A stretch of DNA of 64,000 nucleotides from NCBI RefSeq assembly GCF_055900595.2, contig NZ_CM148325.1. One strand, 5' to 3'. A program made the position numbers. Positions 33,301-36,300 of this stretch are shown here, piece after piece. Within the stretch, counting starts at the first letter, position 1; each line of letters starts with the position of its first letter.

Positions 33301-36300
33301 TAGCGACCAGCGCCAGTACCGACCAACGAGCACTGGGTCGGCGTAACGCGTTCCAGAGTTTCCGCATAATAGCCCCTGTAAAATTATGGTTTAGTGAAGC
33401 GATCTTAATGAGCAAATATGAACAGCGGCACTGGTCAGGATGAACGGCTTACGGCAGAATATGAACAGATATGAACAGAATGAGTAAAACTCTCTGATGC
33501 CACATCACATTGTTATTGTTGAAGATGAGCCGGTTACCCAGGCGCGATTACAAACCTACTTCACTCAGGAGGGGTATACCGTTTCCGTTACGGCGAGCGG
33601 TGCCGGGCTGCGTGAAATTATGCAAAACCAGCCAGTGGATTTAATTCTGCTGGATATCAATTTGCCCGATGAAAATGGCCTGATGTTAACCCGCGCCCTG
33701 CGGGAACGTTCGACGGTGGGTATTATTCTGGTTACCGGACGCAGCGATCGGATTGACCGTATTGTTGGGCTGGAAATGGGCGCAGACGATTACGTCACCA
33801 AACCGCTGGAACTGCGCGAACTGGTGGTACGGGTGAAAAATCTGCTCTGGCGAATCGACCTCGCGCGACAAGCTCAACCGCTCACTCAGGACAACTGCTA
33901 TCGCTTTGCCGGTTATTGCCTGAATGTGTCGCGCCATACGCTGGAGCTTGATGGCGAACCGATTAAACTAACCCGCGCAGAGTATGAAATGTTGGTGGCA
34001 TTTGTGACCAATCCGGGCGAAATTCTCAGCCGTGAACGTCTGCTGCGTATGCTTTCTGCGCGCCGGGTGGAAAATCCCGACCTGCGCACCGTCGATGTGT
34101 TAATTCGTCGTTTACGTCATAAACTCAGCGCGGATTTACTGGTGACACAACATGGCGAAGGTTATTTCTTAGCCGCTGATGTGTGCTGATAAAAATAGAC
34201 CGAACGAAATCCCCCTGGTGACAGCGAGCGGCGGATATGTTCGCGATCGGCATTTTTCGGCGTCAGGACTAAAATCGGTGGGCTGACATTATCAGACACC
34301 GATTGTCCCTGTAATTGCCTGATCGCTTGCTCAACCGCCAGTTCCCCCTGCCAGACCATTTGATCGCTGGCAGCCATAATCACTCTTCCCCGCTTTAGTC
34401 CGCGATACACCTGATGTGAAAGATAAAATGACACCACGGTCAGCGGCGTTTTCAGGTTGCGCCCTTCACCCATTGCCGCCTCTGCCGCAATCGCCGTTCC
34501 GGCCACAACGTCGATTTCTGGATGGCGCTCCAACATCTCCTGCAACAGGTTACGCTGGATTTCAATATCGTTGTCGCCGAGCGCAATATCGACAATACGC
34601 ACCGGGCTTCCGGCAATGGCGGCGCGGAAACCCTCTACCATCTCCTTACTGCCCCCGGCGTTATCGGGGCCGGGCATCAACAGCACGTTCAGTGGTTTTC
34701 CGTGACTCCATTGCACCAGATATCGCCCTGGTTGATAGCCCATCTGAAACCACGGCACACCAACGCGGCTTTTCACCTGGGGAGCATCAATAGCATTTAC
34801 CAGTTCGATCACCGGCAGACTTGCTACCTGCTTTTGCAGGTCGGGAAATGACGTCGTGCTACTTCCGAGCAAAATGGCCTCTGCCCCCCACTGTTTGCAC
34901 TGGTCGATTTGTGCTTGCTGGGTAGCCAACTGGCTGTAGCCGCCTGCCTCCAGCACTTTTAAATCCACACCGTAGCGGCGAGCAGCCTCCTGCATACCAT
35001 AGTTCAACGATAACCAGTATGAATCTTTCAGGCTGGGATAAAGCGCGCACAGTTTCCATGCGCGTTTGGCTTTAAGCGGCATAGAGGCTTGCACCGTGAA
35101 ATGCTGCGCATCATGCCAGCGCAACAAGTTATCAGCCGAAAATCCAGGCAACATGAAAAGGGAAAGAAGTAACAATAGCAGTACGCGCATGATAGCCTCA
35201 TCAATAATAAGGCTTTATGCTAGATGCATTCCGCTTTGCGACTCAACCTTTTTCACCTTAAGTACACTGACCGTGAATTTAACCCTGACCCGAAGACTCT
35301 GGATGGGCTTTGCCCTGATGGCGCTGTTAACCCTGACCAGTACCCTGGTGGGATGGTACAACCTGCGCTTTATCAGCCAGGTGGAAAAAGACAATACTCA
35401 GGCATTGATTCCTACCATGAATATGGCGCGCCAGTTGAGCGAAGCCAGCGCCTGGGAACTTTTCGCCGCCCAGAACCTGACCAGTGCCGATAACGAAAAG
35501 ATGTGGCAGGCGCAGGGGCGAATGCTCACCGCACAAAGCCTGAAGATTAACGCGTTGCTGCAAGCGTTACGGGAACAAGGTTTTGATACCACCGCTATTG
35601 AACAACAGGAGCAGGAGATCTCCCGTTCGTTACGTCAACAAGGGGAACTGGTGGGGCAGCGTTTGCAACTGCGCCAGCAACAACAGCAACTCAGCCAGCA
35701 GATAGTCGCTGCTGCCGATGAGATCGCACGCCTGGCGCAAGGTCAGGCGAATAATGCGGCGACCTCTGCCGGAGCGACCCAGGCCGGGATTTACGATTTG
35801 ATCGAACAACATCAGCGTCAGGCCGCAGAAAACGCACTTGATCGGCTGATTGATATCGATCTTGAGTACGTTAACCAGATGAATGAACTGCGCCTTAGCG
35901 CCCTGCGCGTGCAGCAAATGGTGATGAATCTGGGGCTGGAACAGATCCAGAAAAATGCGCCAACGCTGGAACAGCAGCTCAATAATGCGGTGAAAATTCT
36001 GCAACGTCGGCAAATACGCATTGAAGATCCGGGAGTTCGTGCTCAGGTCGCAACAACGTTAACTTCCGTTAGCCAATATAGCGATTTGCTGGCGCTGTAT
36101 CAGCAGGACAGTGAAATCAGCAATCACCTGCAAACTCTCGCCCAAAATAACATCGCCCAGTTCGCGCAGTTTAGTAGCGAAGTCAGTCAACTGGTCGACA
36201 CCATTGAGCTGCGTAATCAGCATGGCCTGGCGCATCTGGAAAAAGCCAGTGCACGCGGGCAATACAGCCTGTTATTGCTGGGGATAGTTTCTCTTTGCGC

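What the first reader, a model, noticed from the sequence alone, without database searches (positions are those of the whole stretch)
34162..34189. Convergent torR and torT coding regions overlap by 28 nt
The torR stop (34189) lies beyond the torT stop codon (34162..34164), so the two mRNAs must be complementary at their 3' ends unless terminated inside the partner gene. This could couple expression of the regulator and the periplasmic sensor partner.
Basis: seen in the sequence. Interest (0 to 1): 0.2.

Follow-up and report, generated by a model that had tools for sequence, protein, structure and literature searches.

The report
torR and torT genes overlap tail-to-tail
The ends of two oppositely oriented E. 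coli genes of the TMAO-sensing system (torR and torT) really do share 28 bases, but this is a known, annotated and probably incidental feature rather than a new regulatory device.

Summary
torR (33497..34189, +) and torT (34162..35190, -) are full-length, family-confirmed genes, and their coding regions share 34162..34189 (28 nt). RefSeq annotates the same overlap in E. coli K-12 MG1655. The junction is present in 5415 of 5426 complete E. coli genomes. The 28-nt overlap recurs in Escherichia, Citrobacter, Providencia, a contig labelled Enterobacter ludwigii and a metagenomic relative. Serratia has 21 or 54 nt and Edwardsiella has 4 nt or a 7-nt gap.

The two frames share their third codon positions, so TorR's conserved C-terminal peptide (GYFLAADV-C/Y, TGA stop) dictates TorT's last eight residues. 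Those residues lie beyond TorT's conserved fold and vary freely where there is no overlap. Third-position variation in the overlap equals that in the rest of torR. The length is what chance stop spacing predicts. No intrinsic terminator follows either stop.

Published data place a Rho-dependent termination region on the torR strand about 430 nt inside torT, and list torT-torR among 165 convergent "excludons" of MG1655. The transcripts therefore do overlap. Regulatory coupling is untested and looks weak: expression is low, dsRNA is modest, and the system works when its genes are expressed separately. This is already known and of low interest.

The parts
33497..34189 (+). torR coding sequence (OmpR/PhoB-type response regulator TorR, 230 aa; stop TGA 34187-34189)
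   Evidence: ORF. NCBIfam equivalog NF008034, 424 bits, residues 1-230. Pfam Response_reg 5-113 and Trans_reg_C 153-225. Same CDS in RefSeq.
34162..35190 (-). torT coding sequence (periplasmic TMAO-binding protein TorT, 342 aa; stop TAA is the reverse complement of 34162-34164)
   Evidence: ORF. NCBIfam NF008185, 490 bits, and TIGR02955 over residues 46-334. Pfam Peripla_BP_1. PDB TorT 3o1h aligns to residues 46-331.
34162..34189 (.). 28-nt dual-coding stretch. It encodes TorR Y223-C230 plus its stop on the + strand, and TorT Q335-K342 plus its stop on the - strand. The third codon positions of the two frames coincide.
   Evidence: Read directly from the sequence. Cross-species junctions. Enumeration of synonymous encodings.
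34160..34165 (+). TorR Gly222-Tyr223 codons (GGT TAT). The antisense of the Gly wobble base plus 'TA' forms torT's stop codon: TAA if GGT, TAG if GGC, no stop if GGR.
   Evidence: Sequence. Among 28-nt loci GGT gives TAA and GGC gives TAG.
34190..34621 (+). Inferred untranslated 3' extension of torR-strand transcripts, antisense to torT. It ends in a Rho-dependent termination region, coarsely placed by mapping K-12 coordinate 1056830 onto the window.
   Evidence: Adams et al. 2021 Suppl. file 2: 1056830, - strand, antisense torT, Rho score 4.34, p 2.2e-5. Coordinates mapped through. No intrinsic terminator found. Inferred by homology to K-12, not measured in this strain.
35273..38017 (+). torS (sensor kinase). 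It is on the same strand as torR, downstream of the antisense-torT stretch. Only the novel-case read-through idea concerns it.
   Evidence: RefSeq torS coordinates mapped. ORF end.
33416..33478 (+). tor boxes (three exact ATATGAACAG decamers) in the torR-torC intergenic region. They are the TorR binding sites for torCAD activation and torR autoregulation, and control how much torR transcription enters the overlap.
   Evidence: These are the only exact copies in the 64 kb. Their function is from established knowledge of the Tor system; negative autoregulation is cited in PMC9436347.

Best explanation
This is a genuine, conserved tail-to-tail coding overlap, and it is most likely an evolutionary by-product of gene packing rather than a regulatory device. 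torT's reading frame runs past torR's TGA stop into the antisense of torR's last eight codons. It ends at the first in-frame stop, which is the antisense of TorR's conserved Gly222-Tyr223 codons. The two frames share their wobble positions, so TorR's conserved C-terminal peptide fixes TorT's last eight residues (Q-H/Q-T-S-A-A-K/R-K). TorT's tail is a passenger that lies beyond its folded domain. TorR's tail is the constrained partner. There is no space for an intergenic terminator and no intrinsic terminator nearby. Each transcript therefore ends inside the partner gene, by Rho on the torR strand according to published data, and the mRNAs are complementary over far more than 28 nt. Shown: the anatomy, the conservation, the determinism of the tail, and the lack of extra nucleotide constraint. 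Taken from the literature: Rho termination and overlapping transcription. Inferred: that the overlap has little regulatory effect.
For: Anatomy and annotation. Conservation: the 120-nt junction is in 5415 of 5426 complete E. coli genomes. The overlap is 28 nt in Escherichia coli, E. albertii and E. whittamii, in 4 Citrobacter, in 3 Providencia, in one contig labelled Enterobacter ludwigii and in a metagenomic relative with 61% TorT identity. It is 21 and 54 nt in Serratia, and 4 nt or a 7-nt gap in Edwardsiella. Passenger tail: TorR ends GEGY[FL]LA[AS][DE]V-x in every locus, overlapping or not. TorT ends YQ[HY]TSAAKK only where it overlaps by 28 nt, and has unrelated tails (PAPKAE, PASPRQGNGAG, LLPSADVGG) elsewhere. 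The TIGR02955 profile ends at TorT residue 334. The PDB TorT homologues 3o1h and 4yhs align only to residues 331-332. Most of 150 distant representatives stop aligning at residues 329-335. Enumerating all 73,728 synonymous encodings of GYFLAADVC* shows that, with a TGA stop, only Q[QH]TSAA[KR]K is possible for TorT. No extra constraint: third-position entropy at invariant residues is 1.02 bits in the overlap and 1.05 bits in the rest of torR. Length is as expected by chance: the three antisense frames would stop after 21, 28 or 65 nt, and P(stop within 9 codons) is about 0.28. No terminator: z -1.8; z -0.9; no Rfam family covers the junction. Literature: the Rho region antisense to torT and torT-torR in the MG1655 excludon list. 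Dispensability for signalling: TorT, TorS and TorR-mNG on separate inducible promoters in a ΔtorTSR strain respond to TMAO.
Against: Every locus in which torR and torT are adjacent has either an overlap or at most a 7-nt gap (22 loci). None has room for a terminator. Persistent tight packing across four enterobacterial families could reflect selection for overlapping transcription. The Gly222 wobble is always T or C in the 28-nt lineages. However, that set was defined by the overlap length, and with about 6 independent lineages the pattern is not significant. No experiment has separated the genes, so a regulatory effect is not excluded.
Confidence: 0.78

Rival explanations
1. Functional excludon. 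The obligatory 3' transcript overlap is selected because transcription of one gene lowers expression of the other, through head-on RNA polymerase collision or RNase III cleavage of the sense/antisense duplex. That would tune the TorR:TorT ratio, and hence the TorT:TorS ratio.
For: torT-torR is listed among 165 convergent excludons found in at least 50% of 58 MG1655 RNA-seq samples. No terminator follows either stop. Tight convergent packing is conserved in all adjacent loci. Tor output is known to be sensitive to the TorT:TorS ratio (PMC6814406). Head-on collisions can terminate convergent transcription in E. coli.
Against: With overlapping coding sequences, the ExcludonFinder criterion is met almost automatically whenever both genes are detected, so the listing says nothing about effect size. 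p19-captured dsRNA over torT (5-12 RPM) and torR (8-29 RPM) is modest; 13.5% of genes reach at least 100 RPM in that study's S data set. [quoted passage not shown] Distant Tor systems have torT without an adjacent torR, or with two genes in between. The collision mechanism described requires a stem-loop element, and none is evident here.
Confidence: 0.15
2. TorT's C-terminal tail (QHTSAAKK) is itself functionally selected, and the overlap is maintained to keep it.
For: The tail is nearly invariant across Escherichia, Citrobacter and Providencia.
Against: That invariance follows entirely from TorR's conserved peptide, given the shared wobble positions. Where torT does not overlap by 28 nt, its tail is unrelated in sequence. 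The tail lies outside the conserved and crystallised TorT domain.
Confidence: 0.04
3. Annotation or sequencing artefact: one of the stops is wrong, and the genes do not truly overlap.
For: None was found. Overlaps are sometimes produced by mis-called genes.
Against: Stop codons, unlike starts, are fixed by the frame. Both frames are supported to their C-termini by equivalog HMMs. The same junction is found in thousands of independent genomes and in other genera. The one aberrant TorT, P0081 (352 aa, frameshifted tail), comes from a single short assembly contig.
Confidence: 0.01

Closest known systems
torT-torR of E. coli K-12 MG1655 (b0994/b0995) as annotated in RefSeq
   Same: It has the same genes, the same 28-nt overlap and an identical 28-nt sequence. 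The window carries the same locus from a lineage about 4% divergent from K-12.
   Different: Nothing differs at the junction. There are a few synonymous or flanking substitutions, for example TorT P331S.
Convergent excludons / overlapping 3' UTR gene pairs (Sesto et al. 2013 concept; ExcludonFinder map, PMC12288877)
   Same: The neighbouring genes are on opposite strands and their transcripts necessarily overlap. torT-torR is explicitly in the published MG1655 list.
   Different: Typical excludons overlap in their UTRs, with mean intergenic distance 95 nt in E. coli, and here the coding sequences themselves overlap. Mutually exclusive expression and RNase III dependence, the functional hallmarks, have not been shown for this pair.
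Short tail-to-tail coding overlaps in prokaryotes, e.g. the 4-nt yccX-tusE overlap in the same window
   Same: Both arise when one gene's stop falls inside the neighbour's 3' end. The phase with shared third codon positions is one of the common classes.
   Different: At 28 nt this is longer than the very common 4-nt class, and it is conserved at exactly that length across several genera, because it sits on a conserved protein motif of the partner.
Bidirectional intrinsic terminators / programmed RNAP collision at convergent genes (Wang et al., bioRxiv 10.1101/2022.10.23.513370)
   Same: It is a convergent gene pair that needs a way to stop transcription from both sides.
   Different: There is no intergenic space and no stem-loop/U-tract element. 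The available data point to Rho-dependent termination inside the partner gene.

Membership tests
Tor TMAO-sensing locus (torR, torT, torS, torCAD) | TorR and TorT are orthologues, scoring above the curated equivalog cut-offs | tested here: met
   NF008034 scores 424 bits (cut-off 275). NF008185 scores 490 bits (cut-off 200). TIGR02955 scores 433 bits (cut-off 310).
Tor TMAO-sensing locus (torR, torT, torS, torCAD) | Gene order torCA(D)-torR-torT-torS, with tor boxes upstream of torC | tested here: met
   ORFs. RefSeq synteny. Three exact tor boxes at 33416-33478.
Convergent (tail-to-tail) overlapping protein-coding gene pair | Two genuine coding genes on opposite strands share nucleotides at their 3' ends | tested here: met
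   The two coding sequences share 34162..34189. Both frames are HMM-supported to the C-terminus.
Convergent (tail-to-tail) overlapping protein-coding gene pair | The overlap is conserved in relatives, so it is not a strain-specific mutation or error | tested here: met
   The junction is in 5415 of 5426 complete E. coli genomes. The overlap is 28 nt in several genera.
Excludon | Transcripts of the two genes overlap in vivo | not testable with these tools
   Literature only: the ExcludonFinder Table 1 entry torT-torR, and the Rho termination region antisense to torT. No RNA data for this strain.
Excludon | Mutually exclusive or antagonistic expression of the two genes | not tested
   No expression data were analysed and no published test was found.
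Excludon | RNase III processing of the sense/antisense duplex | tested here: inconclusive
   Published p19-captured dsRNA is detectable but low: torT 5-12 RPM, torR 8-29 RPM. The stored part of Table S1 mentions neither gene outside its per-gene sheets S1b and S1c; the file was cut when stored.
Bidirectional intrinsic terminator | GC-rich stem-loop flanked by A- and U-tracts between or at the ends of convergent genes | tested here: not met
   No terminator-like site lies near the junction. Across 33300-35400 there is one site, inside torT, against 2.2 expected. Folds of both strands are not significantly stable.
Noncontiguous operon (co-oriented genes co-transcribed across an opposite-strand gene) | A single transcript spans torR, antisense torT and torS | not testable with these tools
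   The gene order fits. Downstream reads rise about 4-fold with bicyclomycin. The pair is not among the 3 noncontiguous operons listed for MG1655.

The most novel reading that the evidence does not exclude
The layout torR-> <-torT torS-> might act as a Rho-gated, conditional noncontiguous operon. torR-strand transcripts have no terminator after their stop, so they run antisense through torT and are normally stopped by Rho about 430 nt in. When Rho termination is relaxed they would both silence torT and read into torS, shifting the TorT:TorS ratio that sets Tor output and its cell-to-cell noise.
Probability: 0.06. Interest if true: 0.4.

Novelty: already known. Interest (0 to 1): 0.08.

Why it matters
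It matters little. The overlap is a practical caveat for genetics: any deletion, tag or reporter at the 3' end of torT alters torR, and the reverse also holds. A published torT-lacZ reporter strain also carries ΔtorR. It is also a clean textbook case of how a conserved protein motif on one strand can completely dictate a passenger peptide on the other when wobble positions coincide. If the overlap did tune the TorT:TorR:TorS ratios, it would add a layer to the well-studied stochastic bet-hedging of TMAO respiration, but nothing here points that way.

Tried and rejected
1. I looked for the original description (Jourlin et al. 1996), the Carey 2018 and Roggiani 2015 papers, and Ju 2019 SEnd-seq. 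None is held, so I could not confirm who first noted the overlap in print.
2. The first literature search was swamped by tortoise and torrent papers. I redid it with whole-word matching.
3. The search for homologous proteins with TorT returned only near-identical E. coli and Shigella sequences in its top 120, so it was useless for diversity. Diversity came from the genome-contig scan and the representative search.
4. Terminator and promoter scans, RNA folding of both strands and Rfam gave nothing at the junction.
5. I tested for extra synonymous-site constraint in the overlap and found none.
6. I rejected selection on the Gly222 wobble as evidence. It is circular, because the set was defined by overlap length, and it is not significant.
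7. The Dar & Sorek 2018 and ExcludonFinder supplements are not held.
8. I rejected the annotation-artefact reading.
9. P0081, the 352-aa TorT, is a frameshifted tail from a single 2.3-kb contig and is treated as an assembly error.

Full report
**Observation**

The window carries the E. coli tor locus. torR is the ORF 33497..34189 on the + strand (230 aa, stop TGA at 34187-34189). torT is the ORF 34162..35190 on the - strand (342 aa, stop TAA, the reverse complement of 34162-34164).

Both proteins match the curated NCBIfam equivalog models over their whole length. TorR (NF008034) scores 424 bits over residues 1-230. TorT (NF008185) scores 490 bits over residues 1-339. They have the expected Pfam domains. 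Stop positions depend only on the frame, so re-examining start codons cannot remove the overlap.

**Is it already annotated?**

Yes. RefSeq annotates torT at 1056261..1057289 (+) and torR at 1057262..1057954 (-) in K-12 MG1655, which is the same 28 nt. MC1061 and the closest genome, Z0117EC0005, are annotated the same way. The 28 nt are identical in the window and in K-12-derived MC1061.

- A 1.9-kb query covering both genes matches 5418 of 5426 complete E. coli genomes.
- A 120-nt query centred on the junction matches 5415 of 5426.
- This window is only about 96% identical to most E. coli across the locus, and at least 99% identical to 12 records.

**Conservation outside E. coli**

A scan of one genome per species with TorT gave 18 loci. 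In all of them torR lies convergent to torT. I extended each frame to its stop.

| Overlap | Where found |
|---|---|
| 28 nt | Escherichia coli, E. albertii, E. whittamii; four Citrobacter; three Providencia; a contig labelled Enterobacter ludwigii; a metagenomic relative with 61% TorT identity |
| 21 nt and 54 nt | two Serratia |
| 4 nt | Edwardsiella hoshinae |
| none (7-nt gap) | three other Edwardsiella |

More distant TorT homologues have no adjacent torR (47% identity), or have torR 1.3 kb away with two genes in between (45% identity). Wherever the genes are adjacent, they are packed too tightly for an intergenic terminator. The exact overlap length changes with frame and stop position.

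**Anatomy of the dual-coding stretch**

torR codons occupy 34163-65, 34166-68 and so on. torT codons occupy 34167-65, 34170-68 and so on. The third positions of the two frames therefore coincide.

- torT's stop is the antisense of the last base of TorR Gly222 plus the 'TA' of Tyr223. GGT gives TAA and GGC gives TAG, as seen across species.
- I enumerated all 73,728 synonymous encodings of TorR's peptide GYFLAADVC*. With a TGA stop, torT's frame can only read Q-[QH]-T-S-A-A-[KR]-K, followed by a stop or Tyr.
- If torR ended in TAA or TAG, torT's frame would stop at once. That is the 4-nt situation in E. hoshinae, whose torR stop is TAG.

**Which protein is the constrained partner?**

TorR ends GEGY[FL]LA[AS][DE]V-x in every locus, whether or not it overlaps torT. 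TorT ends YQ[HY]TSAAKK only where the 28-nt overlap exists. Elsewhere its tails are unrelated (PAPKAE, PASPRQGNGAG, LLPSADVGG).

- The TIGR02955 TorT profile ends at residue 334.
- The solved TorT of Vibrio parahaemolyticus (3o1h) and the homologue 4yhs align only up to residues 331-332.
- Most of 150 distant representatives stop aligning at residues 329-335.

TorT's eight overlapping residues (Q335-K342) are therefore a passenger tail outside the fold, written by TorR's conserved C-terminus.

**Is there extra selection on the nucleotides?**

No. At residues invariant across 14 loci with the 28-nt overlap, third-position entropy is 1.02 bits inside the overlap and 1.05 bits in the rest of torR. 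The length is also unremarkable. In this window the three antisense frames of torR's 3' end would stop after 21, 28 or 65 nt. Stops in the shared-wobble phase occur about once per 28 codons in the window's long ORFs, so P(stop within 9 codons) is about 0.28. In the syntenic RefSeq annotation, 2 of 10 convergent pairs overlap: yccX-tusE by 4 nt and torT-torR by 28 nt.

**Transcript ends**

- A consensus scan of 33300-35400 finds no terminator-like site after either stop. It finds one site, inside torT, against 2.2 expected by chance.
- Folding 150 nt downstream of each stop gives no significantly stable structure (z -1.8 and -0.9).
- No Rfam family covers the region.
- Adams et al. 2021 (PMC7815308, Supplementary file 2) list a Rho termination region at MG1655 coordinate 1056830 on the - strand, classified as antisense to torT. 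Read counts are 39 upstream and 14 downstream without bicyclomycin, and 52 and 81 with it. The Rho score is 4.34 and p is 2.2e-5.
- With torR ending at 1057262, that position is 432 nt past the torR stop, which corresponds to about 34621 in the window.

There are caveats. The Adams method uses 800-nt windows, the counts are small, and the downstream window includes the torS promoter and 5' end. Their Term-seq tables contain no defined 3' end for either gene.

ExcludonFinder (PMC12288877, Table 1) lists torT-torR among 165 convergent gene pairs with overlapping transcription in at least 50% of 58 MG1655 RNA-seq data sets. With overlapping coding sequences, that criterion is met almost automatically once both genes are detected.

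**Does it regulate anything?**

I found no direct test. Several points argue against a strong effect.

- torS and torT are repressed to very low levels aerobically. [quoted passage not shown]
- p19-captured dsRNA is 5-12 RPM for torT and 8-29 RPM for torR. In that study's S data set 13.5% of genes reach at least 100 RPM.
- TMAO signalling is reconstituted in a ΔtorTSR strain with TorT, TorS and C-terminally tagged TorR on separate inducible promoters.
- Distant Tor loci lack the arrangement.

In favour of some effect: tight packing is conserved, Tor output is known to be sensitive to the TorT:TorS ratio, and head-on RNA polymerase collisions can terminate convergent transcription in E. coli. 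The collision mechanism described there needs a stem-loop element, which I do not see here.

**Verdict**

The inference that the mRNAs are complementary is right, and the complementary stretch is much longer than 28 nt. The idea of regulatory coupling is neither supported nor refuted, and I consider it unlikely to be strong. The feature is already annotated and already listed in a published genome-wide map, so it is ordinary.

The most novel reading still open is a Rho-gated read-through from torR across antisense torT into the co-oriented torS. I give it about 6%.

Noticed in passing
window 60337-60340: There is a second convergent coding overlap in the window. The ORFs 59954..60340 (+) and 60337..60828 (-) share 4 nt, and in the syntenic RefSeq annotation they are tusE and yccX. 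This pair is also in the published excludon list.
   Followed up: partly
window 33416-33425, 33459-33468, 33469-33478: Three exact copies of the tor box decamer ATATGAACAG lie in the torR-torC intergenic region, and they are the only exact copies in the 64 kb. A degenerate fourth copy (GGATGAACGG) sits near 33439.
   Followed up: partly
window 35273 vs 35303: RefSeq starts torS at the GTG at 35273. Carey et al. [quoted passage not shown] In this window the ATG is at 35303, 10 codons in, so the annotated start may be too long.
   Followed up: partly
window 33400-35300 (whole tor regulatory region): This stretch is only about 96% identical to K-12 and most E. coli. It is at least 99% identical to just 12 of 5419 matching records, and the best match is dog isolate Z0117EC0005. 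The window therefore comes from a minority lineage at this locus.
   Followed up: no
L010, L012, L013 (Providencia loci): Providencia TorT (71-76% identity) and TorR (85-90% identity) are as close to E. coli's as Citrobacter's are, and they keep the exact 28-nt overlap. That suggests horizontal transfer of the tor regulatory genes into Morganellaceae.
   Followed up: no
window 5609-5802 (+), 6945-7122 (-), 23037-23079 (+), 39724-40146 (-), 58967-59051 (+): Rfam gathering-score hits elsewhere in the window are Ysr251, two naRNA4 (CssrE) copies, ES036 (CssrF), a cspA-type thermoregulator leader (upstream of cspG by synteny) and tRNA-Ser.
   Followed up: no
window 32105-33268 (+): A 387-aa ORF runs antisense through torC. 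It is a reminder that long antisense ORFs occur mechanically in this region. I did not examine it for coding potential.
   Followed up: no
L026 15358-17538 (syntenic to window about 46460-48640): In the closest RefSeq genome, etk (tyrosine kinase) is flagged as a pseudogene with an internal stop, and ymcE as frameshifted. I did not check whether the window shares these lesions.
   Followed up: no
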